Below are positions 10,414-63,793 of a DNA stretch of 64,000 nt, one piece after another. How positions within the stretch are numbered: the stretch's first letter is position 1; each line of letters begins with the position of its first letter. Source of the DNA: the human T2T-CHM13v2.0 reference genome, Homo sapiens. The stretch lies in NCBI RefSeq assembly GCF_009914755.1, contig NC_060926.1; one strand, 5' to 3'. The notes below the pieces were generated by a model. That model saw nothing but the letters and a program-made list of their open reading frames with translations, did no database searches and had not been told where the DNA came from. The position numbers and the translations under genes were made by a program.

Positions 10414-13400
10414 TTTTTTTGTCATTTTTTTAATTATAGTTTAAGTTCTGAGGTACATGTGAAGAATGTGTAGGTTTGTTACATAGGTATACACATGCCA
10501 TGGGGGTTTGCTGCACCCATCAACCCATCATCTACATTAGGTATTTATCCTAATGCTATCCCTCCCCTAGGCCCCCACCCCTGACAAGCCATGGTGTGTG
10601 ATGTTCCCCTCCATGGGTGCATGTGTTCTCATTGTTGAACTCCCACTTATGAGTGTGAACACTTGGTGTTTAGTTTTCTGTTCTTGTGTTAGTGTGCTGA
10701 GAATGATGGTTTCCAGCTTCATCCATGTCCCTGTAAAGGACCTGAACTCATCCTTTTTTATGGCTGCATAGTATTTGATGGTATATATGTGCCACATTTT
10801 TTTTATCAGGTCTCTCATGGATGGGCATTTGGGTTGGTTCCAAGTCTTTGCTATTGTGAATAGTGCTGCAGTAAACATGCGTGTGCATGTGTCTTTATAG
10901 TAGAATGATTTATAATCCTTTGGGTATATACCCAGTAATGGGATTGCTGGGTCAAATGGTATTTCTAGTTCTAGATCCTTGAGGAATTGCCACACTGTCG
11001 TCCACAATGGTTGAACTAATATACACTCCCACCCACAGTGTAAAAGCATTCTTATTTCTCCACATCTTCTCCAGCATCTGTTGTTTCCTGACTTTTTAAA
11101 TGATTGCCATTCTGACTTGTGTGAGGTGGTATCTCACTGTAGTTTTGATTTGCATCTCTCTAATGAGCAGGGATGATGAGCTTTTTTCGTATGTTTACTG
11201 GCTTCTTTTGAGGAGTGTCCGTTCATATCCTTTGCCCACTTTTTGATGGGGTTTTTTCTTGTAAATTTGTTTAAGTTCTTTGTAGATTCTAGATATTGGC
11301 CATTTGTCAGATGGATAGATTGCAAAAATTTTCTCCCAATCTGTAGGTTTCCTGTTCACTCTGATGATAGTTTCTTTTGCTGTGCAGAAGTTCTTTAGTT
11401 TATTCAGATCCCATTTGTCTATTTTGGCTTTTGTTGCCATTGCTTTTGGTGTTTTAGTCATGAAGTCTTTGCCCATGCATATGTCCTGAATGGTATTGCC
11501 AAGGTTTTCTTCTAGGGTTTTTATGGTTTTAGGTCTTACATTTAAGTCTTTAATCCATCTTGAGTTAATTTTTGTATAAGGTGTAAGGAAGGGATCCCGT
11601 TTCAGCTTTCCGGATATGGCTAGCCAGTTTTCCTAGCACCATTTATTAAATATGGAATCCTTTCCCCATTGCTTGTTTTTGTCAGGTTTGTGAAAGATCA
11701 GATGGTTGTAGATGTGTGGTGTTATTTCTGAGGCCTCTATTCTGTTCCATTGGTCTATATCTCTGTTTTGGTACCAGTCCCATGCTGTTTTGGTGACTGT
11801 AGCCTTATAGTATAGTTTGAAGTCAGGTAGTGTGATGCTTCCAGCTTTGTTGTTTTTGCTTAGGACTGTCTTGGCTATGTGGGCTCTTTTTTGGTTCCAT
11901 ATGAAGTTGAAAGTAGTTTTTTCCAATTCTGTGAAGAAAGTCAATGGTAGCTAGACTGGGATAGCATTGAATCTATAAATTACTTTGGACAGTATGGCTA
12001 TTTTGATGATATTGATTCTTCCTATCCATGAGCATGGAATGTTTTTCCATTTGTTTGTGTCCTCTCTTATTTCGTTGAGCAGTGGTTTGTAGTTCTCCTT
12101 GAAGAGGTCCTTCACATCCCTTGTAAGTTGGATTCCTAAATATTTTATTCTCTTTGAAGCAATTGTGAATGGGAGTTCACTCATGATTTGGCTCTTTGTT
12201 TGTCTATTATTGGTGTATAGGAATGCTTGTGATTTTTGCACATTGATTTTATATCCTGAGTCTTTGCTGAAGTTGCTTATCAGCTTAAGGTGATTTGGGG
12301 ATGAGACAAAAGGGTTTTCTAAATATACAAGTACGTCATTTGCAAACAGAGACCATTTGACTTCCTCTTTTCCTAATTGAATACCCTGGGTTTCTTTCAC
12401 TTGCCTGATTGCCCTGGACAGAACTTCCAATACTACATTGAATAGGAGTGGTGAGAGAGGGCATCCTTGACTTGTGCCAGTTTTCAAAGGGAATGCTTCC
12501 AGTTTTTGCCCATTCAGTATGATATTGGCTGTGGGTTTGTCATAATAGCTCTTATTATTTTGAGATATGTTCCATCAATGCCTCATTTATTGAGAGTTTT
12601 TAGCGTGAAGGGCTATGGAGTATTGTCGAAGGCCTTTTCTGCATCTATTGAGATAATCATCTGGTTTTTTCATTGGTTCTGTTTATGTGATGGATTACGC
12701 TTATTAATTTGCATATGTTGAACCAGCCCTGCATCCCAGGGATAAAGCCGACTTGATCATGGTGGAAAAGCTTTTTGATGTGCTGCTGGATTTGATTTGC
12801 CAGTATTTTATTGAGGTTTTTCGCATCGATGTTCATCAGGGATATTGGCCTGAAATATTTTTTATTGTTGTTGTGTCTCTGCCAGGTTTTGGTATCAGGA
12901 TGATGCTGGCCTCACAAAATGAGTTAGGGAGGATTCCCTCTTTCTCTATTGTTTGGAATAGTTTCAGAAAGAATGGTACCAGCTCCTCTTTCTACCTCTG
13001 GTAGAACTTGGCTGTGAATCGTCTGGTCCTGAGCTTTTGTTGGTTGGTAGGCTATTAATTGCTGCCTCAATTTCAGAACTTGTTATTGTTCTATTCAGGG
13101 ATTCGACTTCTTCCTGGTTTAGTCTTGGGAGGGTGTATATGTCCATGAATTTATCAATTTTTTCTAGATTTTCTAGTTTATTTCCATAGAAGTGTTTATA
13201 GTATTCTCTGATGGTGCTTTGTATGTCTGTGGGATTGGTGTTGATATCCCCTTTATCATTTCTTATTGCATCTATTTGATTCTTCTCTCTTTTCTTCTTT
13301 ATTAGTCTGGCTAGTGGTCTATTTTGTTGATCTTTCCAAAAAGCAGCCCCTGCATTCATTGATTTCTTTGGAGGGTTTTTTGTGTCTCTATCTCCTTCAG

Positions 13401-16330
13401 TTATGCTCTGATCTTGGTTATTTCTTGCCTTCTGCTAGCTTTTGAATTTGTTTGCTCTTGATTCTCTAGTTCTTTTAATTGTGATGTTAGCGTGTCAATT
13501 TTAGATCTTTCCTGCTCTCTCTTGTGGGCATTTAGTGCTATAAATTTCCCTCTACACACTGCTTTAAATGTGTCCCAGAGATTCTGGTACATTGTGTCTT
13601 TGTTCTCACTGGTTTCAAAGAACATCTTTATTTCTGCCTTCATCTTGTTATTTACCCAGTAGTCATTCAGGAGCAGGTTGTTCAGTTTCCATGTAGATGT
13701 GCGGTTTTGAGTGAGTTTCTTAATCCTGAGTTCTAATTTGATTGCACTGTGGTCTGAGAGACTGTTATGATTTCTGTTCTTTTACATTTTCTGAGGAGTG
13801 TTTTACTTCCAATTATGTGGTCAATTTTAGAAAAAGTGTGATGTGATGCTGAGAAGAATGCATATTCTGTTGATTTGGGGTGGAGAGTTCTATAGATGTT
13901 TATTAGGTCTGCTTGGTCTATAGCTGAGTTCAAGTCTTGGATATCCTTGGTAATTTTGTGTCTCGTTGATCTATTATTGACACTGGGGTGTTAAAGTCTC
14001 CCACTATTATTGTGTGGGAGTCTAAGTCTCTTTGTAGGCCTCTAAGAACTTGCTTTATGAATCTGAGTGCTCCCGTATTGAGTGCATATATATTTAGGAT
14101 AGTTAGCTCTTCTTGTTGCATTGATCCCTTTACAGTTATGTTATGCCCTTCTTTGTCTCTTTTGATCTTTGTTGGTTTAAAGTCTGTTTTATCAGAGACC
14201 AGTATTGCAACCCCTGCTTTTTTTTTTGCTTTCCATTTGCTTGGTAGATCTTCCTCCATCCCTTTATTTTGAGCCTCTGTGTGTCTTTGCAAGTGAGATG
14301 GGTCTCCTGAATAGATCACACCAATGGTTCGTGACTCTTTATCCAATTTGTCAGCCTGTGTCTTTTAATTGAGGCATTTAGCCCATTTACATTTAAGGTT
14401 AATATTGTTATGTGTGAATTTGATCCTGCCATTGTGATGCTAGCTGGTTATTTTGTCCGTTAGTTGATGCAGTTTCTTCATAGTGTTGATGGTCTTTACA
14501 ATTTGGTATGCTTTTGCAGTAGCTGGTAGTGGTTGTTCCTTTCCATGTTTAGTGCTTCCTTCAGGAACTCTCGTAGGACAGGCTTGGTGGTGACAAAATC
14601 TCTTAGCATTTCCTTATCTGTAAAGGATTTTATTTCTCCTTCACTTATGAAGCTTAGTTTGGCTGGATATGAAATTCTGGGTTGAAAATTCTTTTGTTTA
14701 AGAATGTTCAATATGGGCCTCCACTCTCTTCTGTCTTGTAGGGTTTCTGCTGAGGGATCTGCTGTTAGTCTGATGGGCTTCCCTTTGTGGGTAACCTGAC
14801 CTTTCTCTCTGGCTGCCCTTAACATTTTTTTCTCCATTTCACCCTTGGTGAATCTGACAATTATATGTCTTGAGGTTGCTCTTCTTGAGGAGTATCTTTA
14901 TGGTGTTCTCTGTATTTCCTGAATTTGAATGTTGGCCTGCCTTGCTAGGTTGGGATAGTTCTCCTGGATGATATCCTGCAGAGTGTTTTCCAACTTGGTT
15001 CCATTCTCCCCATCACTTTCAGGTACACCAGTCAAAAGTAGATTTGGTCTTTTCACATAGTCCCATATTTCTTGGAGGCTTTGTTCTTTTCACTCTTTTT
15101 TTTCGAATCTTGTCTTCTCACTTTATTTCATTGAGTTGATCTTCAATGTCTGATATTCTTTCTTCCACTATCAATTTGGCTAATGATACTTGTGTATGCT
15201 TCACGAAGTTCTCATGCTGCGTTTTTTAGCTCCATCAGGTCATTTATGTTCTTCTCTGAACTGGTCATTCTAGTTAGCGATTTTTCTAAACTTTTTCAAG
15301 GTTCTTAGCTTCCTTGCATTGGGTTAGAACATGCTCCTTAACTCGGAGGAATTTGTTATTACCCACCTTCTGAAGCTTACTTTTGCCAATTCGTCGAACT
15401 CATTCTCCATCCAGTTTTGTTCCCTTGCTGGCAAGGAGTTGTGATCCTTTGGAGGAGAAGAGCCGTTCTGGTTTTTGGAATTTTCATCCTTTTTGCGCTG
15501 GTTTATCCCCATCTTCATGGATTTATCTACCTTTGGTCTTTGAAGTCGGTGCCCTTCAGATGGGGTCTCTGAGTGGATGTCCTTTTTTGTTGATGTTGAT
15601 ACTATTCCTTTTTGTTTGTTAGTTTTCCTTTTAAAAGTCAGGACCCTCTGCTGCAGGTCTGCTGGAGTTTGCTGGAAGTCCACTCCAGACCCTGTTTGCC
15701 TGGGTATCACCAGTGGAGGCTGCAGAATAACAAAGACTGCTGCTTGTTCCTACCTCTGGAAGCTTCGTTCCAGAGTGGCACCCACCAGATGCCAGCCAGA
15801 GCTCTCCTGTATGAGGTGTCTGTCAGCCCCTACTGGGAGGTATCTCCTAGTCAGGATACACAAGGGTCAGGGATCCACTTGAGGTGGCAGTCTGTCCCTT
15901 ATTAGAGCTCCAATGCTGTGCTTGTAGATCCGCTGCTGTCTTCAGAGCTGCCAGGTAGGGACATTTAAGTCTGCTGAAGCTGTGCCCACAACCGCCCCTT
16001 CCCCCAGGTGCTCTGTCCCAGGGATGTGGGAGTTTCATGTATAAGTCCCTGACTGGGGCTGCTGCCTTTTTTTCAGAGATGCCCTGCCCAGAGAGGCAGT
16101 CTGGCCACAGGGGTGTTGCTGAGTTGGGGCGGGATCCGCCCAGTTCGAACTTCCTGGCAGCTTTGTTTACACTGTGAGGGTGAAACCGTCTACTCAAGCC
16201 TTAGCAATGGCGGACGTGCTTTCCTCCACCAAGCTTGAGCGTCCCAGGTCCATCTTAGACTGCTGCTGTGCTGGCAGCAAGAATTTCAAGCCAGTGGATC
16301 TTAGCTTGCTGGGCTCTCTGGGGGTGGGAC
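10414..16330 (-). mobile_element. L1-A: near full-length L1PA (approx. PA7/PA8), inactive, start of 5'UTR missing
   Basis: Minus-strand ORF1 fragments (14496-15710) and ORF2 EN/RT/C fragments (10567-14346, e.g. [16 protein letters not shown]). Poly(T) and 3'UTR from 10414. Multiple stops and frameshifts; no TSD found. Confidence 0.96.
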
Positions 16331-32540: not shown

Positions 32541-33257
32541 AAATATTGCTACTATCTTTATTTCTTCATGGCTAGAAAACCTATTGGGACAAAAAGAATA
32601 ATTAACAACATGAAAATAACTTTATTTATCATGAAACAGGAACCTTCACGTCAGCTTCTCTTCGTCATCCTCATGAACATCCCATTCCAGACTATGTGTC
32701 TGATATACATTAGATAGTTAATAGGTATAGCAATAGGTACCAAGGGTTTTATAGAAACCATTGGTTTGTCAGTGGTTTCTATAAAGGCCACAGACAACCC
32801 TACACATAGTTTCTTTTCAAAACCTCTTACATCTCTGTTATCAAAAGAAAGGATGGAATGAGAAATTCCCCTGGAAAATGAAAATGAAATTTGTTTCTAG
32901 TTAATTTAGGGAATAAAGATAATGGCTAACATTTATTGTGCCCTTAATATTTACCAGACTCTTTCTTTGATTAATTCTTTCTACATTTATTATCATATTT
33001 GATAGTCATAACAACTCTGTGAAGTAGATATTATTTCCTCCAGTATAGAGACAAGGAGACATTAAAGAAGTTCAGAAATATTCTCAATACTAGTAAGTAG
33101 CAGAGCTAAGATTTTAAAAGCCAGATACGAATTCTATGCTGTTTCTTTAGAAAAAGAGTATTTATTTTCATTAAAGTTATACATGAAAATATTTTAAAGA
33201 GTTATATAAGATTTGTTGCTAAAAACAGCATATATTAAATATAAACAGCGTATATTA

Positions 33258-33621
33258 AATACTACGCAGCCATAAAAAGGATGAGTTTATGTCCTTTTCA
33301 GGGACATGGATGAAGCTGGAAACCATCATTCTCAGCAAACTAACACAGGAACAGAAAACCAAACACCGCATGTTCTCACTCATAAGTGGGAATTGAACAA
33401 TGAGAACACATGGACACAGGGAGGGGAACATCACACACCAGGGCCTGTTGTGGGGTGGGGGGTTTAAGGGAGGGATAGCATTAGGGGAAATACCTAATGT
33501 AGATGATGGGTTGATGGGTGCAGCAAACCACCATGGCACGTGTATACCTATGTAACAAACCTGCACGTTCTGTACACATATCCCAGAACTTAAAGTAAAG
33601 TATAATAATAACAAAAAAAAA
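33258..33621 (+). mobile_element. 5'-truncated L1PA (approx. PA7/8), ~360-bp 3' end
   Basis: aatactacgcagccataaaaaggatgag, then 3'UTR, then cccagaacttaaagta and an A-tail. Confidence 0.92.
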
Positions 33622-39736: not shown

Positions 39737-42700
39737 TAGTTATCTATTGTAGCATAATAAATTACCCTCAAACTTAGTGGATTAAAACAATATTCGTGGA
39801 TTTCTGTTCCAAGACAGCCAAATAGGAACAGCTCCAGTCTGCAGCTTCCAGTATGATTAACACAGAAAACAGGTGATTTCTGCATTTCCAACTGAGGCAA
39901 CTGGTTCATCTCACTGGAACTGGTTGGACAGTGGTGCAGCCCACAGAGGGCAAGCCAAAGTAGGGTTGGGGCATCACCTCACCTGGGAAGTACAAGGGGT
40001 CGAGGGATTTCCCTTTCTTAGCCCAGGGAAGCTGTGACAGACAGTACCTGGAAAAACGAGACACTCTCGCCCAAATACTGTGCTTTTCCAATGGTCTTAG
40101 CAAATGGCACACCAAAAGATTATATCACGTGCCTGGCTCGGTGCGTAACACACCCATGGAGCCTTGCTCACTGCTAGTGCAGCAGTCTGAGATTGACCTG
40201 CGAGGTGGCAGTCTGGCAGGGGGAGGGGTGTCTGCCATTGCTGAGGCTTGAGTAGGTAAACAAAACAGACTGGGAAGCTAGAACTGGGCGGAGCCCACTG
40301 CAGCTCAGCAAGGCCTGCTGTATAGACTCCACCTCTGGGGGCAGGGCATAACTTAAAAGGCAGCAGAAACTTCTACAGACTTAAACGTCCCTGTCTGACA
40401 GCTCTGAAGCAAGCAGTCATTCTCCCAGAATGGTGTTTGAGCTTGGAAAACGGACAGACTGCCTCTTCAAGTGGGTCCCTGACCCCCATGTAGCCTAACT
40501 GGGAGACACCTCCCAGTAGGGGCCGACTGACATCTCATACAGCCAGGTGCCCCTCTGGGACGAAGCTTCCAGAGGAAGGATCAGGCAGCAATATTTGCTG
40601 TTCTGCAGCCTCTGCTGGTGATACCCAGGCAAACAGGGTCTGGAGTGGACCTCCAGCAAACTCCAACAGAACTGCAGCTGAGGGACCTGATGGTTAGAAG
40701 GAAAACTAACTAACAGAAAGGAATAGCATCAACATCAAAAAAAGGACATCCACACCAAAATCCCATGTGTAGGTCACAAACATCAAAGACCAAAGGTAGA
40801 TAAAACCACAAAGATGGGGAGAAACCAGAGCAGACAACCTGAAAATTCTAAAAATCAGAGTGCCTTTTCTCCTCCAAAGGATCACAGCTCATCTCCAGCA
40901 ATGGAACAAAGCTGGACGGAGAGACTTTGACGAGCTGACAGAAGTAGGCTTCAGAAAGTCGGTAATAACAAATTCCTCTGAGCTAAAGGAGGATGTTCGA
41001 GCCCATTGTAAGGAAGCTAAAAACCTTAAAAAAAGATTAGATGAATGGCTAACTAGAATAAACAGTGTGGAGAAGACCTTAAATGACCTGATAGACATGA
41101 AAACCATGGCAAGAGAACTACATGATTCAAGCACAACCTTCAATAGCTGATTCGATCAAGTGCAAGAAAGGGTATCAGTGATTGAAGATCAAATTAATGA
41201 AATAAAGCAAGAAGAGAAGTTTAGAGAAAAAAAGAGTAAAAAGAAACAAACAAAGCCTCCAAGAAATATGGGACTATGTGAAAAGACCAAATCTACATTT
41301 GATTGGTATACCTGAAAGTGACAGGGAGAATGGAACCAAGTTGGAAAACCCTCTTCAGGATATTATCCAGGAGAACTTCCCCAACCTAGCAAGGCAGGCC
41401 AACATTCAAATTCAGGGAATACAGAGAACACCACAAAGATATACCTCAAGAGCAACCTCAAGACACATAATTGTCAGATTCATCAAGGTTGAAATGAAGG
41501 AAAAAAATGTTAAGGGCAGCCAGAGAGAAAGGTCAGGTTACCCACAAAGGGACACCCATCAAACTAATGGCAGATCTCTCAGCAGAAACTCTGCAAGACA
41601 GAAGAGAGTAGGGGCTAATATTCAATATTTTTAAGCAAAATAATTTGCAAATCCGGCCAAACTAAGCTTCATAAGTGAAGGAGAAATAAAATCCTTTACA
41701 GACAAGCAAATGCTGAGAGATTTTGTCACCACCAGGCCTGCCTTACAAGAGCTTCTGAAGGAAGCACTAAACATGGAAAGGAACAACCAGTACCAGCCAC
41801 TGCAAAAACATGCCAAATTGGAAAGACTATCAATGCTAGCAAGAAACTGCATCAACTAACAGGCAAAATAACCAGCCAACTTCATAATGACAGGATCAAA
41901 TTCAAACATAACAATATTAACCTTAAATGTAAATGGGCTAAATGCCCCAATTAAAAGACACAGACTGGCAAATTGAATAAAGAGTCAAGACCTATTAGTG
42001 TGCTGTATTCAGGAGACCCATCTCACGTGCAGAGACACATATAGGCTCAAAATAGAGGGATTGAGGAAGATCTACAAAGCAAATGGAAAGCAAAGATCAA
42101 AAGAGACAAAGAAGGGCATTACATCATGGTAAAGGAATCAATTCAACAAGAAGAGCTAACTATCCTAAATATATATGCACCCAATACAGGAGCACCCAGA
42201 TTCATAAAGCAAGCCTTAGAGACTAAGACTCCCACACAATAATAATGGGAGACATTAACACCCTGCTGTCAATATTAGACAGATCAACAGACAGAAGGTT
42301 AACAAGGATATCCAGGACTTGAACTCAGCTCTGCACCAAGCAGACCTCATAGACATTTACAGTACTATTCACCCCAAATCAACAGAATATACATTCTTCT
42401 CAGCACCACATCACACTTATTCCAAAAATTGACCACATAGTTGGAAGTAAAGCACTCCTCAGCAAATGTAAAAGAAGAGAAATCACAACAAACTATCTCT
42501 CAGGTCACAGTGCAATCAAATTAGAACTCAGGATTAAGAAACTCAACAACCTGCTCCTGAATGACTACTGGGTAAATAACGACATGAAGGCAGAAATAAA
42601 GATGTTCTTTGAAACCAATGAGAACAAAGATACAATGTACCAGAATCTCCGGGACACATTTAAAGCAGTGTGTAGAGGGAAACTTATAGCACTCAATGCC

Positions 42701-45700
42701 CACAAGAGAAAGCAGGAAAGATCTAAAACTGACACCCTAACATCACAATTAAAAGAACTAGGGAAGTAAGAACAAACAAATTCAAAAGCTAGCAGAAGGC
42801 AAGAAATAACTAAGATCAGAGCAGGACTGGAAGATATAGAGACACAAAAAACCCTTCAAAAAAAATCATTGAATCCAGGAGCTGGTTTTTTAAAACATGA
42901 ACAAAATTGATAGATCGCTAGCAAGACTAATAAAGAAGAAAAGAGTGAATCAAACAGACACAACAAAAAAATGATAAAGGGGATATCACCACCAATCCCA
43001 CAGACATACAAACTACCATCAGAGAATACTATAAACACCTCTACACAAATCAACTAGAAAATCTAGAAGAAATGGATAAATACCTGGACAGATACACTCT
43101 CCCAAGACTAAACCAGGAAGAAGCTGAATCTCTTAATAGACCAATAACAGGCTCTGAAATTGAGGCCATAATTAATAGCCTACCAATCAAAAAATGTCCC
43201 GGACCAGACGGATTCACAGCCGAATTCTACCAGAGGTACAGAGAGGAACTGTTAACAGTCCTTCTGAAACTATTCCAATAAAAAAAAGAGGGAATCCTCC
43301 CTAACTCATTTTATGCAGCCAGCATCATCCTGATACCAAAGCCTGGCAGAGAAATAACAAAAAAAGAGAATTTTAGACCAATATCCCTGATGAACATCGA
43401 TGCGAAAATCCTCAGTAAAATACTGGCAAACCTAATCCAGCAGCACATCAAAAAGCTTATCCACCACACTCAAGTCAGCTTCATCCCTGGGATGCAAGGC
43501 CGGTTCAAAATACGCAAATCAATAAATGTAATCCATCACATAAACAGAACCAAAGACAAAAACCACATGATTATCTCAATAGATGCAGAAAAGGCCCTTG
43601 ACAAAATTCAAAGCCCTTCATGCTAAAAACTCTCAATAAACTAGGTATTGGTGGAACATACCGCAAAATAATAATAACTATTTATGATGCACCCACAGTC
43701 AATATCATACTGAATGGGCAAAAACTGGAAGCATTCCCTTTGAAAACTGGCAAAAGACAGGGATGCCCTCTCTCACCACTGCTATTCAACACAATGTTGG
43801 AAGTTCTGGCCAGAGCAATCAGGCAAGAGAAAGAAATAAAGGGTATTCAATTAGGAAAAGAGGAAGTCAAATTGTCTCCAATTGCATATGACATCATTGT
43901 ATATTTAGAAAACCCCATTCTCTCAGCCCCAAATCTCCTTACGCTGATAAGCAACTTCAGCAAAGTCTCAGGATACAAAATCAATGTACAAAAATCACAA
44001 GCATTCCTATACACCAATAATAGACAAACAGAGAGCCAAATCATGAGTGAACTCCCATTCACAATTGCTGCTAAGAGAATAAAATACCTAGGAATCCAAC
44101 TTACAAGGGATGTGAAGGACCTCTCCAAGGAGAACTACAAACCACTGCTCAACGAAATAAAAGAGGACACAAGCAAATGGAAGAACCTTCCATGCTCATG
44201 GGTAGGAAGAATCAATATCGTGAAAATGGCCATGCTGCCCAAAGTAATTGATAGGTTCAATGCCATCCCCATTAAGCTACCAATGACTTTCTTCACAGAA
44301 TTGGAAAAAAACTACTTTCACATGTAACTATTTCATTTGGTTAATATGGAACCAAAAAAGAGGCCACATTGCCAAGACAATCCTAAGCAAAAAGAACTAA
44401 GCTGGAGGCATCACACTACCTGATTTCAAACTATATTACAAGGCTACAGTAACCAAAATAGCATGCTACTGGCACCAAAACAGAGATATAGACCAATGGA
44501 ACAGAACAGAGGCCTCAGAAATAACACCACACATCTACAACCCCCTGATCTTTAACAAATGTGACAAAAACAAGAAATGGGGAAAGGATTCCCTGTTTAA
44601 TAAATGGTGCTGGGAAAACTGGCTAGCCATATGTAGACAGCTGAAACTGGATCCGTTGCTTGCACCTTGTACAAAAATTAATTCAAGATGGATTAAAGAC
44701 TTACTGTTAGACCTAAAACCATAAAAACCTTAGAAGAAAACCTAGGCAATACCATTCAGGACATAGGCATGGGCAAGGGCAAGGACTTCATGTCTAAAAC
44801 ACCAAAAGCAATGGCGCAAAAGCCAAAATAGACAAATGAGATCTAATTAAACTAAAGAGCTTCTGCACAGAAAAAGAAACTACCATCAGAGTGAACAGGC
44901 AACCTACAGAATGGGAGGAAATTTTTGCAATCTACCCATCTGACAAAGAACTAATATCCAGAATCTGCAAAGAACTTATACAAATTTACAAGAAAAAAAT
45001 CAACCCCATCAAAAAGTGGGTGAAGGATATGAACAGACACTTCTCAAAAGAAGACATTTATGCAGCCAACAGACATGTGAAAAAATCCTCATCATCACTG
45101 GTCAGCAGAGAAATGCAAATCAAAACCACAATGAGATACCATCTCATACCAGTTAGAATGGCGATCATTAAAAAGTCAGGAAACTACAGGTACTGGAGAG
45201 GATGTGGAGAAATAGGAATGCTTTTACACTGCTGGTGCGAGTGTAAACTAGTTCAACCATTGTGGAAGACAGTGTGGTGATTCCTCAAGGATCTAGAACT
45301 AGAAATACCATTTGACCCAGCCATCCCATTACTGAGTATATACCCAAAGGATTATAAATCATGCTACTATAAAGACACATGCACATGTATGTTTATTGCG
45401 GCACTAATCACAATAGCAAAGACTTGGAACCAACCTAAATGAGCATCAGTGATAGACTGGATTAAGAAAATGTGGCACATATACATTATGGAATACTATG
45501 CAGCCATAAAAAAGGATGAGTTCATGTCATTTGCAGGGACATGGATGCAGGTGGAAACCATCATTCTCAGCAAACTACTGCAAGGACAGAAAACCAAACA
45601 CCGCATGTTCTCACTCATAGGTGGGAACTGAACAATGAGATCACTTGGACATAGGGTGGGGAACATCACACACTGGGGCCTGTCATGGGGTGGGGGCAGG

Positions 45701-46367
45701 GGGAGGGATAGCATTAGAAGAAATACCTAATGTAAATGATGAGTTACTGGGTGCAGCAAACCAACATGGCACATATATACCTATATAACAAACATGCATG
45801 TTGTGCACATGTACCCTAGAACTTAAAGTATAATAAAAATAATTAAAATTAAAAAATGTAAAAAACAAATAATAATAGATGAAAATACATTAAAAAAACA
45901 GTATTTGTTATCTCACAGTTTCTGTGGGTCAGAAGTACAGCATGGTCTAGTTGGGTCCATTCTTTCTCTGGGTTTCTTTCAAGGCTGCAATCAAGGTATT
46001 GGCTGGGGCTGTAGTTGCTGGCAGGATTCAGTTACTTATGAGCTATTGGACTGAGTGCCTCACTTCCTCATTGGTTATTATCCAGAAGCTGCTCTTAGTT
46101 TCTTGCCATATGGGTTTCTTCATAGGATAGCTCACAAAATGGTGGCTGGCTTCATTATAGAAAGCAAGAGAGAAGAGAAAGAGAGGTGTCACACTCTTTT
46201 ATAACCTAATCTTATAAGTGACATCTCATCACTTTTTTCATATTCTGTTTGGTAGAAGCCAGTCACTATGTGCAGCCCACACTCAATAGGAGAGGGATTA
46301 CACAAGCATTTGAATGACAGAAGGCAGGGATCGATCGTTTGAGCCATTTCAGAAGGTGCCAGCCACA
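39737..46367 (-). mobile_element. MLT1 LTR split by L1-B (pieces ~39737-39797 and 45895-46367)
   Basis: ttatctattgtagcataataaattaccctcaaacttagtggattaaaacaa continues after L1-B as tttgttatctcacagtttctgtgggtcag...ccagccaca. Confidence 0.85.
39798..45894 (+). mobile_element. L1-B: full-length L1PA (approx. PA6), inactive
   Basis: 5'UTR start ttccaagacagccaaataggaacagctcc; ORF1 and ORF2 fragments (40860-45631); degenerate A-tail. TSD aaaacaatattcgt (39784-39797) / aaaacagtatttgt (45895-45908) at a TT|AAAA site. Confidence 0.97.
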
Positions 46368-56979: not shown

Positions 56980-57483
56980 GTCTTCTTAATAGCAACCTTA
57001 ACCTGAAGACCAAATTTGGCAGAGGTAAAAAGGAATATATTCAGGAAAATAGTAGTTACAAAGCCTATTTACCTTATTAACAAGTGTAGAGAAGAAAAGT
57101 CAGAATCTATGAATTAGACTCTTACATAAAATAATGATCAGGATTTAATCCGGTTAACCTTTTATTCTTGATACCTTTCGTTCTATCTTAGCAGTAAAAA
57201 CAAACAAACAAAAAAAAAAAAAAAGCACACACAAAGAATAGAAGAGCAGACAACACATCAATTGAATTAACATGTGAAAAAAATCTAGATTCTTACTGCA
57301 TGCCTTAAGCCAAAATAAATTCCAGATGGACTGAAGTTCTAAATATAAATAACAGAAGCTTGAGAGCAATAGAAGTAGGTAAATAATAATGTTATACTTG
57401 GTAAAGGAGAACTGCCTAGGCATATCTCCCAAAACAAAGCTCATAAGAGAAAATAGTGATAGATTTGATAACATAAAATTTTT
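56980..57483 (+). mobile_element. Old L1M(E) ORF2 3' fragment hosting the U6/L1-C insertion; resumes at 63794-~63890
   Basis: aaaataaattccagatgga...gatagatttgataacataaaatt continues after the insertion as tttatatttggtaaggc...gaaaaggcaagtcatag. Confidence 0.65.
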
Positions 57484-59535
57484 ATTTTATTTATTTTGTT
57501 TATTATACTTTAAGTTCTAGGATACATGTGCACAATATGCAGGTTTGTTACATATGTATACATGTGCCATGTTGGTTGGTTGCACCCATTAACTCGTCAT
57601 TTACATTAGGTATTTCTCCTAATGCTATCCCCCCCAGTCCCCCCACCCCATGACAGGCCCCGGTGTGTGATGTTCCCTACCCTGTGTCCAAGTGTTCTCA
57701 TTGTTCAATTCCCACCTATGAGTGAGAACATGTGGTGTTTGGTTTTCTGTCCTTGTGATAGTTTGCTCAGAATAATGGTTTCCAGTTGCATCCATCTGCC
57801 TACAAAGGACATGAACTCATCTTTTTTTATGGCTGCATAGTATTCCATGGTGTATATGTGCCACATTTTCTTAATCCAGTCTATCACTGATGGACATTTG
57901 GGTTGGTTCCAAGTCTGCTATTGTGAATAGTGCTGCAATAAACATACATGTGCATGTGTCTTTATAGCAGCATGATTTATAATCCTTTGGGTATATACCC
58001 AGTAATGGGATCACTGGGTCAAATGGTATTTCTAGTTCTAGATCCTTGAGGAATCGCCACACTGTCTTCCACAATGGTTGAACTAGTTCACACTACCAAG
58101 AACAGTGTAATAACATTCCTATTTCTCCACATCCTCTCCAGTACCTGTTGTTTCCTGACTTTTTAATGATCACCATTTTAACTGGTGTGAGATGGTATCT
58201 CATTTTGGTTTTGATTTGCATTTCTCTGCTGACCAGTGATGATGAGCATTTTTTCACATGTCTGTTGGCTGCATAAATGTCTTCTTTTGAGAAGTGTCTG
58301 TTCATATCCTTCACCCACTTTTTGATGGGGTTGATTTTTTTCTTGTAAATTTGTATAAGTTCTTTGCAGATTCTGGATATTAGTTCTTTGTCAGATGGGT
58401 AGATTGCAAAAATTTCCTCCCATTCTGTAGGTTGCCTGTTCACTCTGATGGTAGTTTCTTTTGCTGTGCAGAAGCTCTTTAGTTTAATTAGATCCCATTT
58501 GTCTATTTTGGCTTTTGTTACCGTTGCTTTTGGTGTTTTAGTCATGAAGTCCTTGCCCATGCCTATGTCCTGAATGGTATTGCCTAGGTTTTCTTCTAGG
58601 GTTTTTATGGTTTTAGGTCTAACATGTAAGTCTTTAATCCATCTTGAATTAATGTTTGTATAAGGTGTAAGGAAGGAATGCAGTTTCAGCTTTCTACATA
58701 TGGCTAGCCAGTTTTCCCAGCACCATTTATTAAATAGGGAATCCTTTCTGCATGGCTTGTTTTTGTCAGGTTTGTCAAAGATCAAATGGTTGTAGATGTG
58801 TGAAGTTATTGTAGAGACCTCTGCTCTGTTCCATTGGTCTATATCTCTGTTTTGGTACCAGTACCATGCTGTTGTGGTTACTGCAGCCTTGTAGTATACT
58901 TTGAAGTCAGGTAGCATGATGCCTCCAGCTTTGTTCCTTTGGCTTAGGATTGTCTTGGCAATGCGGTCTCTTTTTTGGTTCCACGTGAACTTTAAAGTAG
59001 TTTTTCCCAATTCTGTGACAGAAGTCATTGGTAGCTTGATGGAGATGGCAGTGAATCTATAAATTGCCTTGGGCAGTATGGCCATTTTCACGAAATCGAT
59101 TCTTCCTCTCCATGAGCATGGAATGTTCTTCCATTTGTTTGTGTCCTCTTTTATTTCGTCGAGCAGTGGTTTGTAGTTCTCCTTGAAGAGGTCCTTCACA
59201 TCCCTTGTAAGTTGGATTCCTAGGTATTTTATTCTCTTGGTAGCAATTGTGAATGGGAGTTCACTCATGATTTGGCTCTCTGTTTGTCTTTTGTTGGTGT
59301 ATAGGAATGCTTGTGACTTTTGCACATTGATTTTGTATCCTGAGATTTTGCTGAAGTTGCTTATCAGTGTAAGGAGATTTGGGGCTGAGACAATGGGGTT
59401 TTCTAAATATACAATCATGTCATCTGCAAACAGGGACAATTTGACTTCCTCTTTTCCTAATTGAATACCCTTTATTTTTTCTCTTGCCTGATTGCCCTGG
59501 CCAGAACTTCCAACACTATGTTGTGTTGTTGTGTA

Positions 59536-59802
<267 letters not shown>

Positions 59803-60574
59803 GAAGTTCTTAGCATGAAGGGCTGTTGAATTTTGTCGAAGGCCTTTTCTGCATCTATTGAGATAATCATGTGGTTTTTGTCTTTGGTTCTGTTTATGTG
59901 ATGGATTACGTTTATTGATTTGCATATGTTGAACCAGCCTTGCATCCCAGGGATGAAGCCCACTTGAGTGTGGTGGATAAGCCTTTTGATGTGCTGCAGG
60001 ATTTGGTTTGCCAGTATTTTATTGAGGATTTTCGCATCGATGTTCATCAGGTGTATTGGTCTAAAATTCTCTTTTTTTGTTATTTCTCTGCCAGGCTTTG
60101 GTATCAGGATGATGCTGGCTGCATAAAATGAGTTAGGGAGGATTCTGTCTTTTTTTATTGATTGGAATAGTTTCAGAAGGATTGGTATCAGCTCCTCTTC
60201 CTACCTTTGGTAGAATCTGGCTGTGAATCCATCTGGTCCTGGACTTTTTTTGGTTGGTAGGCTATTAATAATTGTCTCAATTTCAGAGCCTGGTTATTGG
60301 TGTATTCAGGGATTCAACTTCTTCCTGGTTTAGTCTTGGCGGGGGTATATGTGTCCAGGAATTTATCCATTTCTTCTAGATTTTCTAGTTTGCTGTAAAC
60401 ACCTCTACACAAATATTCTCTGATGGTAGTTTGTATTTCTGTGGGATCGGTGGTGATATCCCCTTTATCTTTTTTTATTGAGTCTATTTGATTCTTCTCT
60501 CTTTTCCTCTTTGTTAGTCTTGCTAGTGGTCTGTCAATTTTGTTGATCTTTTCAAAAACCATCTCCTGGATTCA

Positions 60575-60691
<117 letters not shown>

Positions 60692-61435
60692 TTATTGTGA
60701 TGTTAGGGTGTTGATTTTAGATCTTTCCTGCTTTCTCTTGTGGGCATTTAGTGCTATAAATTTCCCTCTACATACTGCTTTAAATGTGTCCCAGGGATTT
60801 TTATGTTGTGTCTTTGTTCTTATTGGTTTCAAAGGACATCTTTATTTCTGCCTTCATTTCGTTATTTACCCAGTACTCATTCAGGAGCAGGTTGTTCAGT
60901 TTCCATGTAATTTTGCAGTTTTGAGTGAGTTTCTTAGTCCTTAGTTCTAATTTGATTGCACTGTGGTCTGAGAGACAATTTGTTGTGATTTCTGTTCTTT
61001 TACATTTGCTGAGGAGTGCTTTACTTTCAACTATGTGGTCAATTTTGGAATAAGTGTGATGTGGTGCTGAGAAGAATGCATCTTCTTTTGATTTGAGGTG
61101 GAGAGTTCTATAGATGTCTATTAGGTTGGCTTGGTGCAGAGCTGAGTTCAAGTCCTGCATATCATTATTACCCTTCTGTCTCGTTGATATAATATTGACA
61201 GCAGGGTGTTAATGTCTCCCATTATTATTGTGTGGGAATCTAAGCCTCTTTGTAGGTCTCCATGGACTTGCTTTTTGAATCTGGGTGCTCCTGTATTGGG
61301 TGCATATATATTTAGGATAGTTAGCTCTTCTTGTTGAATTGATTCCTTTACCATGATGTAATGCCCTTCTTTGTCTCTTTTGATCTTTGTTATTTTAAAG
61401 TCTGTTTTACCAGAGACTAGGATTACAACCCCTGC

Positions 61436-61463
61436 TTTTTTTTTTTTTTTTTTTTTTTTTTTT
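61436..61463. repeat. T28 homopolymer inside L1-C ORF2 5' region
   Basis: Read directly from the sequence. Confidence 0.9.
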
Positions 61464-63687
61464 GAGCCTGTGTGAGTCTCTGCACGTGAGATGGGTCTAC
61501 TGAATACAGCACACTGATGGGTCTTGACTCTTTGGGGCATTTATTCCATTTACATTTAAGGTTAGTATTGTTATGTGTGAATTTGATCCTGTCATTATGA
61601 TGTTAGCTGGTTATTTTGCCCATTAGTTGATGCCATTTCTTCCTAGCATCAGTGGTCTTTCCAATTTGGCATGTTTTTGCAGTGGCTGGTACCAGTTGTT
61701 CCTTTCCATGATTAGTGCTTCCTTCAGGAGCTCTTGTAAGGCAGGCTTGGTGGTGACAAAATCTCTCAACATTTGCTTGTCTGTAAAGGATTTTATTTCT
61801 CCTTCACTTATGAAGCTTAGTATGGCTGGATATGAAATTCTGGGTTGAAAATTCTTTTCGTTAAGAATGTTGAATATGGGCCCCCACTCTCTACTGGCTT
61901 GTAGAGTTTCTGCTGAGAGATCCACTGTTAGTCTGATGGGCTACCATTTGTGGGTAGCCTGACCTTTCTCTCTGGCTGCCTTTAACATTTTTTTCTTCTG
62001 TTCAACCTTGGTGAATCTGACAATTATGTATCTTGGGGTTGCTCTTCTCGAGGAGTATCTTTGTGGTGTTCTCTGTATTTCCTGAATTTGAATGTTGGCC
62101 TGCATTGCTAGGTTGGGGAAGTTCTCCTGGATAATATCGTGAAGAGTGTTTTCCAGCTTGGTTCCATTCTCCCCGTCACTTTCAGGTACACCAATCAAAT
62201 GTAGATTTGGTCTTTTCACATACTTCCATATTGCTTGGAGGCTTTGTTCATTTCTTTTTACTCTTTTTTCTCTAAACTTCTCTTCTTGCTTTATTTCATT
62301 AATTTGATCTTCAATCACTGATACCCTTTCTTCCACTTGATCAAATCGGCTATTGAAGCTTGTGCATGCCTCATGTAGTTCTCATGCGATGGTTTTCAGC
62401 TCCATCAGGTCATTTAAGGTCTTCTCTACACTGTTTATTCTAGTTAGCCATTCTTCTAATCTTTTCTCAAGGTTTTTAGCTTGTTTGCGATGGGTTCGAA
62501 CATCTTCCTTTACTTCAGAGAAGTTTGTTATTACTGACCTTCTGAAACATACTTCTGTAAACTCGTCAAAGTCATTCTCTGTCCAGCTTTGTTCTGTTGC
62601 TGGCGATGAGCTGCGATCCTTTGGAGGAGAAGAGGCGGTCTGGTTTTTAGAATTTTCTGCTTTTCTGCTCTGGTTTCTCCCTATCTTTGTGGTTTTATCT
62701 ACCTTTGGTCTTTGATGTTGGTGACTTACACGTGGGGTTTTGGTGTGGATGTCCTTTTTGTTGATGTTGATGCTATTCCTTTCTGTTTGTTAGTTAGTTT
62801 TCCTTCTAACAGTCAGGTCCCTCAGCTGTAGGTCTGTTGGAGTTTGCTGGAGGTCCACTCCAGACGCTGTTTGCCTGGGTATCACCAGCAGAGGCTGCAG
62901 AACAGCAAATATTGCTGCCTGATCCTTCCTCTGGAAGCTTTATCTCAGAGGGGCACCTGGCTGTATTAGGTGTCAGTTGGCCCCTACTGGGAGATGTCTC
63001 CCAGTTAAGCTACATGGGACCCACTTGAGGAGGCAGTCTATCCATTCTCAGAGCTCAAACACCATGCTGGGAGAACCACTGCTCTCTTCAGAGCTGTCAG
63101 GGACATTTAAGTCTGTAGAAGTTTCTGCTGCCTTTTGTTCAGCTATGCCCTGCCCCCAGAGGTGGAGTCTACAGAGGCAGACAGGCCTTATTGAGATGAG
63201 GTGGGCTCCACCCAGTTTGAGCTTCCAGGCTGCTGTGTTTTCCTACTCAAGCCTCAGCAATGGCAGACGCCCCTTCCCCAGCCAGGCTGCTGCCTCGCAG
63301 CTGGATCTCAGACTGCTGCGCTAGCAGTGAGCAAGGCTCTGTTGGCATGGGATTTGCTGAGCCAGGCATGGGATATAATCTCCTGGTCTGCCGTTTGCTA
63401 AGACCATTGGAAAAGTGCATTATTTGGGTGGCAGTGTCCCGATTTTCCTGCCATAGTCTGTCACGGCTTCCTTTGGCTAGGAAAGGGACATCCCCCAACC
63501 CCTGTGCTTCCCGGGTAAGGCGATGCCCCACCCTGCTTTGGCTCGCCCTCTGTGGCCTGCACCCACTGTCCAACCAGTCCCAATGAGATGAACCCGGTAC
63601 CTCAGTGGGAAATGCAGAAATCACTCATCTTCTCTGTCAATCATGCTGGGAACTGCAGACGGGAGCTGTTCCTATTTGGCCATCTTG

Positions 63688-63793
63688 AAAAATATGGAAT
63701 GCTTCATGAATTTGCATGTCATCCTTGCACAGGGTCTTGCTGGTCTTCTCTGTATTGTTCCAGTTTTAGTATATGTGCTGCCGTAGTGAGCAC
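63688..63793 (-). pseudogene. RNU6: Full-length U6 snRNA retrocopy (106 nt), 5' partner of the U6/L1 chimera
   Basis: Minus strand: GTGCTCACTACGGCAGCACATATACTAAAACTGGAACAATACAGAGAAGACCAGCAAGACCCTGTGCAAGGATGACATGCAAATTCATGAAGCATTCCATATTTTT. ACAGAGA box present. By eye, about 12 substitutions (half at CpG) and 1 deletion versus the U6 sequence as I recall it. Confidence 0.97.

What the first reader, a model, noticed from the sequence alone, without database searches (positions are those of the whole stretch)
44872..45128. 257-bp near-identical tract shared by the inverted L1-B and L1-C: recent gene conversion
Seen: 44872-45128 matches the reverse complement of 58206-58462 with a single mismatch (45087), while the two elements differ frequently on both sides. 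The tract carries unusual shared residues ([35 protein letters not shown]), where L1-A has the ordinary [12 protein letters not shown] and KWAKD. Inference: non-allelic gene conversion between nearby inverted repeats homogenised this patch long after insertion.
Basis: partly seen in the sequence, partly recalled or inferred. Interest (0 to 1): 0.7.

Follow-up and report, generated by a model that had tools for sequence, protein, structure and literature searches.

The report
Gene-conversion patch between neighbouring L1s
Two old, dead, oppositely oriented LINE-1 elements 13 kb apart on human chromosome 2 differ at about 8% of positions but are identical at 256 of 257 bases in one patch, most likely because DNA repair copied one onto the other fairly recently; this is a clean but ordinary example of a known process, and the same pair shows two or three smaller patches of the same kind.

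Summary
The best other genomic copy is 95% (40 of 4034 candidates scored). Against L1 relatives chosen blind to the tract (22-26 per site), the patch holds 8 rare alleles shared by both elements and 1 private one; the flanks hold 3 shared and 102 private (Fisher p 3e-9). B and C form a 100/99 clade in the tract tree and in 0 of 200 bootstrap trees of either flank. Each element keeps its own target-site duplication, so there is no net inversion. Best explanation: non-crossover non-allelic gene conversion, late in the pair's history. New here: smaller candidate patches at 42091-42204, 42230-42276 and 43292-43383 (clustering p 0.004), so exchange likely recurred. Donor, ape state, polymorphism and read support were not testable. 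L1-C is a catalogued U6/L1PA6 chimera holding a catalogued human-specific NUMT. A known process, a locus I did not find in print, no sign of function.

The parts
44872..45128 (+). Main homogenised tract in L1-B (maximal bounds; first to last shared derived allele 44918-45105, 188 bp), in the 3' part of dead ORF2
58206..58462 (-). Partner tract in L1-C
39800..45860 (+). L1-B, full-length degraded primate L1 (ends approximate), flanked by its own 14-bp target-site duplication with 2 mismatches; carries older-lineage alleles than L1-C on both sides of the tract
57481..63687 (-). L1-C, full-length degraded L1, catalogued as the L1PA6 part of a U6/LINE-1 chimera (hg38 chr2:49227587-49233793); own 17-bp target-site duplication
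42091..42204 (+). Secondary candidate tract T1: 114 bp identical to L1-C 61276-61389, 3 rare shared alleles; only B and C match at 100%
42230..42276 (+). Weak candidate tract T1b: 47 bp identical to L1-C about 61191-61237, 3 shared alleles seen in 0 of 13 panel copies (2 mutation events)
43292..43383 (+). Secondary candidate tract T2: 92 bp identical to L1-C 60054-60145, 3 rare shared alleles plus one at 3/15; only B and C match at 100%
63688..63793 (-). Full-length U6 copy (RNU6-439P) fused to the 5' end of L1-C, inside the same target-site duplication
   Evidence: Rfam RF00026, 91.2 bits, model 1-105/105
59531..59802 (-). 272-bp NUMT inside L1-C, 1069 bp from the tract; catalogued as human-only among great apes
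   Evidence: supplement rows of PMC13629686

Best explanation
The patch is most likely a non-allelic gene-conversion tract: a break in one of two inverted, 13-kb-distant dead L1 elements was likely repaired by copying 188-257 bp from the other, without crossover, late in the pair's history, and smaller exchanges likely happened between the same pair on other occasions. Shown: near-identity confined to a patch; a full load of private alleles shared only there; tree incongruence; intact target-site duplications and unswitched lineage markers on both sides (no net crossover). Inferred from established recombination biology: a double-strand break or nick, strand invasion of the nearby paralog, synthesis-dependent strand annealing (or an equivalent replication template switch), germline transmission. 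The 45087 difference is a change in B (0 of 54 relatives carry it), most simply a later mutation. Donor direction is unresolved. 1/257 = 0.39% (Poisson 95% range 0.01-2.2%) against 8.4% in the flanks puts the event in roughly the last 5% (0.1-26%) of the pair's divergence; this is biased young because the tract ends are defined by mismatches.
For: 256/257 vs 91.5-91.8% flanks. Best other copy 95%. Blind panel: tract 8 rare shared, 1 B-only, 0 C-only in 257 sites; flanks 3 rare shared, 50 B-only, 52 C-only in 1769 sites (Fisher p 2.6e-9). Run of 6 consecutive shared events reached in 1 of 100000 permutations. B+C clade 100/99 with stem 0.029 in the tract tree, 0 of 200 bootstrap trees in each flank. 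TSDs pair in cis: scores 9.0 and 12.0 vs 6.5 and 7.5 crosswise. B keeps older-lineage alleles at 44243 (p 0.006) and at 45366, 45534, 45697, 45781. Secondary patches: 4 adjacent shared-event pairs outside the main tract, 359 of 100000 permutations; B-C ranks first of 105 pairs (4 vs at most 2). L1-A shares no run over 75 bp with B or 62 bp with C.
Against: No outgroup or population data, so the unconverted state was not seen. The genome search scored only 40 of 4034 candidates. The flanks diverge by 8.4%, more than the LINE-1 pairs behind human inversions (median 97.1% similar, passages of PMC9675761), and the 13-19 kb spacing exceeds the <10 kb range reported for raised Alu conversion (PMC6598467). 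The secondary runs are weak on length alone (expected 0.02, 0.14 and 7.6 runs of >=114, 92 and 47 bp), rest on a panel of 12-15 copies, and other genomic copies reach 98% to T1 and T2. In the search with the B stretch around T1b, L1-C was not among the 40 listed matches. B and C belong to neighbouring sub-lineages, so some sharing is inherited.
Confidence: 0.92

Rival explanations
1. Assembly or polishing artefact: reads from one L1 were used to correct the other.
For: The two copies are repeats close to each other; I could not see reads.
Against: The patch is 257 bp inside 8%-divergent flanks and keeps one difference; long reads span such a patch easily (own knowledge). The hg38 span of L1-C (6207 bp) and its split point match the window layout at a constant offset of 4106, though this does not test the tract bases.
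Confidence: 0.03
2. Inversion toggling: the interval between the L1s flipped an even number of times by non-allelic crossover, and the patches are conversion tracts that came with the crossovers.
For: Inverted L1 pairs of this spacing mediate inversions (mean 14.3 kb for human-specific L1 events, PMC2603318); several patches exist.
Against: TSDs and lineage markers are in cis. A reciprocal swap 5' of the tract was tested and not supported (44575 p 1.0; 44793 p 0.07). The locus is not among the 49 rows of PMC2603318 Table S1, and no chr2 row came up in the PMC10150506 supplements.
Confidence: 0.04
3. Common source element: B and C came from one parent L1 that carried these alleles, and the patch has by chance not mutated since.
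For: B and C share older-lineage alleles at 9 diagnostic sites.
Against: They differ at 4 strong lineage sites and do not group in either flank tree; at most 1 change in 257 bp has P 4e-9.
Confidence: 0.01

Closest known systems
Non-allelic gene conversion between neighbouring Alu elements (Aleshin and Zhi 2010, as cited in PMC6598467 and PMC8230782; the original was not read)
   Same: Neighbouring copies of one retrotransposon family share non-diagnostic mutations; the effect depends on distance and identity.
   Different: Here L1, 13-19 kb apart (beyond the <10 kb Alu range), about 8.4% divergent, with individually visible tracts.
Conversion within the L1 shared by KALX and KALY (PMC3055243, passages)
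   Same: Repeated conversion inside a primate L1, seen as local tree incongruence.
   Different: That case is between X and Y gametologues of one insertion; this is between two independent insertions on one autosome.
Double-strand-break repair of a chromosomal L1 by conversion with other L1s in mouse cells (Tremblay et al. 2000; seen only as cited in PMC3055243; paper not held)
   Same: The mechanism proposed here.
   Different: Experimental and induced; here natural and germline.
L1 recombination-mediated inversions (PMC2603318; PMC9675761)
   Same: Same substrate: inverted L1 pair about 13 kb apart.
   Different: Crossover outcome with exchanged flanks; here the flanks are not exchanged.

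Membership tests
Non-allelic gene conversion tract | Local identity far above the paralogs' background | tested here: met
Non-allelic gene conversion tract | Shared derived, non-diagnostic alleles confined to the tract | tested here: met
   8 of 257 sites vs 3 of 1769; permutation 1 of 100000
Non-allelic gene conversion tract | Local tree incongruence | tested here: met
   100/99 clade in tract, 0 of 200 bootstrap trees in each flank (flank bootstraps had not fully settled)
Non-allelic gene conversion tract | No exchange of flanking markers | tested here: met
   TSDs and lineage alleles in cis
Non-allelic gene conversion tract | Non-reciprocal transfer with an identifiable donor | tested here: inconclusive
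   45102 T goes with B's lineage, but natural intermediates like C (L049, L052, L018) also carry it
Non-allelic gene conversion tract | Unconverted state seen in an outgroup or another haplotype | not testable with these tools
   no ape or other human genome is held (no relatives)
L1 recombination-mediated inversion | Chimeric elements with swapped TSDs and an inverted interval | tested here: not met
   absent from the list
U6/LINE-1 chimera (L1-C) | Full-length sense U6 directly 5' of an L1, inside one TSD | tested here: met

The most novel reading that the evidence does not exclude
This tail-to-tail L1 pair is a recurrent local conversion hotspot that works at about 8% divergence and over 13-19 kb; the main tract is human-specific or still polymorphic, and the fresh 257 bp of near-perfect homology re-arms the pair for a rare inversion of the roughly 13-kb interval about 60 kb upstream of FSHR. 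If such pairs are common, old L1s exchange sequence more than is assumed when divergence is used to date them.
Probability: 0.15. Interest if true: 0.5.

Novelty: new member of a known kind. Interest (0 to 1): 0.27.

Why it matters
Conversion between neighbouring transposons is known, mostly from Alu and LTR elements. This is a well-supported L1 example, apparently repeated in one pair, at a divergence and distance where it is expected to be uncommon. It offers a cheap test locus for dating and polarising such an event with ape T2T and pangenome data, and it suggests a genome-wide scan of neighbouring L1 pairs. There is no sign of function: both ORF2 frames are broken, the supplied annotation lists no gene part or functional element over the tract, and FSHR lies about 60 kb away.

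Tried and rejected
Slow-evolving region: rejected, blind-panel pairs differ at 9 or more sites there. Subfamily-diagnostic alleles: rejected for 44918, 44949-50, 44979 and 45105; accepted for 45102 and partly for the CpG-type sites. Distant donor: best 95%. Net inversion: rejected by TSDs. Donor direction from lineage markers: inconclusive (one search had a coding error and was redone). Reciprocal swap upstream of the tract: not supported. L1-A or the short 3' L1 at 33254-33621 as partners: L1-A has no run over 75 bp, the short L1 is 85-88% identical to all three. PRDM9-type 13-mer (motif recalled): 2 matches in the window, at 1987 and 17185, none near the tracts. Template in the window for the 18-bp insertion in B at 44321-44338: none by exact 12-mers. 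Inversion catalogues: none near 49 Mb of chr2 in PMC2603318 Table S1 (whole table read); none by coordinate prefix in PMC10150506 supplements; PMC12350158 showed only chr12, chr14 and chr19 rows, but its file was cut and 2 of 4 places of one term were not shown; the PMC12058530 supplement was unreadable. PMC2567098 passages did not identify this NUMT.

Full report
Layout. A self-comparison of the window shows three long L1 elements: A (minus, about 10414-16000+), B (plus, about 39800-45860) and C (minus, 57481-63687). B and C point tail to tail with about 11.6 kb between their 3' ends. C begins with a full-length U6 copy and is listed as a U6/L1PA6 chimera in a supplement row of PMC13174262. 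It also holds a 272-bp NUMT that two supplement rows of PMC13629686 list at CHM13 chr2:49225531-49225802, present in human only. I had no repeat library, so B has no tested subfamily name.

Observation. 44872-45128 equals the reverse complement of 58206-58462 at 256 of 257 bases, the mismatch at 45087. The flanks match at 962/1051 and 660/719. At that rate, at most one mismatch in 257 has P 4e-9. None of 1576 pairs among 57 related genomic L1s had two or fewer mismatches in any 257-column window, and 210 blind-panel pairs differ at 9 or more sites at these coordinates. A search of the window's own genome returned B and C at the top and 95% for the best other copy; it scored 40 of 4034 candidates.

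Are the shared alleles private? I used two panels: 28 copies chosen by likeness to the tract and 29 chosen on B's 3' flank, blind to the tract. Against the blind panel (22-26 copies per tract site), the tract has 8 rare alleles (<=5%) shared by B and C, 1 B-only and 0 C-only. The 1769 flank sites have 3 rare shared, 50 B-only and 52 C-only (Fisher p 2.6e-9). With both panels pooled, 5 stay rare: 44918, 44949, 44950, 44979, 45105. Trees agree: B and C form a 100/99 clade in the tract (51 rows) and in 0 of 200 bootstrap trees of the 3' flank (57 rows) or the 5' flank (35 rows); rows covering too little of a region were left out.

Timing and outcome. One element's rare private load would be 7.3-7.6 per 257 bp and the tract shares 8, so the copy was made after most of the divergence had built up. 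One mismatch gives 0.39% (0.01-2.2%) against 8.4%. A human-specific event fits but is not shown (human-chimpanzee divergence of about 1.2% is recalled). Each element is flanked by its own target-site duplication, and B carries the older-lineage allele at 44243 and at four sites 3' of the tract, so there was no net crossover. The donor could not be named: the one lineage marker in the tract is also carried by natural intermediates that resemble C.

More than one patch. With 12 further full-length relatives, rare shared alleles cluster in three more identical runs: 42091-42204, 42230-42276 and 43292-43383. For the first and third, only B and C match at 100% among the 40 scored candidates (of 549 and 790), with others at 98%. 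With the main tract removed, near-adjacent changes merged and the unreliable poly-A zone 42040-42090 dropped, 16 shared and 316 differing events give 4 adjacent shared pairs (359 of 100000 permutations), and B-C ranks first of 105 pairs. This evidence is moderate: the panel is small, the 92- and 47-bp runs are not unusual by length, and C did not appear in the search around T1b. Single rare shared alleles at 43942, 44704 and 45192 may be remnants or recurrent mutation.

Mechanism. Most likely a break in one element was repaired from the other by synthesis-dependent strand annealing or an equivalent template switch, copying 188-257 bp without crossover (0.92). The pattern is shown; the repair steps are inferred from established biology. 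Rivals are an even number of inversions (0.04), an assembly artefact (0.03) and a common source (0.01).

Comparison with print. Conversion between neighbouring Alus, strongest under 10 kb, is reviewed in PMC6598467 (parts 1-2 of 4 read) and PMC8230782 (passages). Repeated conversion inside an L1 is reported for KALX/KALY, and that paper cites experimental L1-to-L1 break repair (PMC3055243, passages). Inverted L1 pairs cause inversions (PMC2603318, passages and Table S1; PMC9675761, passages). Ten literature searches (listings only) and coordinate look-ups in supplements did not turn up this tract or an inversion here. The library lacks most subscription papers, the PMC12058530 supplement was unreadable and the PMC12350158 file was cut, so ape or human inversion calls there could bear on the inversion rival. 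PMC2567098, PMC3649671, PMC4476161 and PMC11838501 were seen as passages (one section of the last).

Verdict. Interest 0.27.

Noticed in passing
window 63688-63793 (-) joined to 57481-63687: U6/L1 chimera whose L1 part is full length, whereas such L1 parts are typically 5' truncated (PMC11838501 section 29); already catalogued.
   Followed up: yes
window 59531-59802: Human-specific NUMT (COX1 identity recalled, not tested) sits where L1-C lacks about 150 bp present in L1-B (about 43635-43785); whether the loss came with the insertion needs the chimpanzee site. It marks a human-lineage break 1069 bp from the tract; no link shown.
   Followed up: partly
window about 61436-61462 (-): In L1-C a run of about 26 A replaces an A-rich stretch of the ORF2 5' region; the hg38 annotation is split at the same place.
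   Followed up: partly
window 42091 and about 42218: Two deletions in L1-B (about 50 bp and 13 bp) lie at or near the edges of candidate tract T1.
   Followed up: no
window 44321-44338 and 44771-44784: L1-B has an 18-bp insertion with no template found in the window and a 6-bp tandem duplication.
   Followed up: partly
window 44677-44729 and 45186-45220: Short identical runs near the main tract, each holding one rare shared allele (44704, 45192); possible remnants of an older, longer or patchy tract.
   Followed up: no
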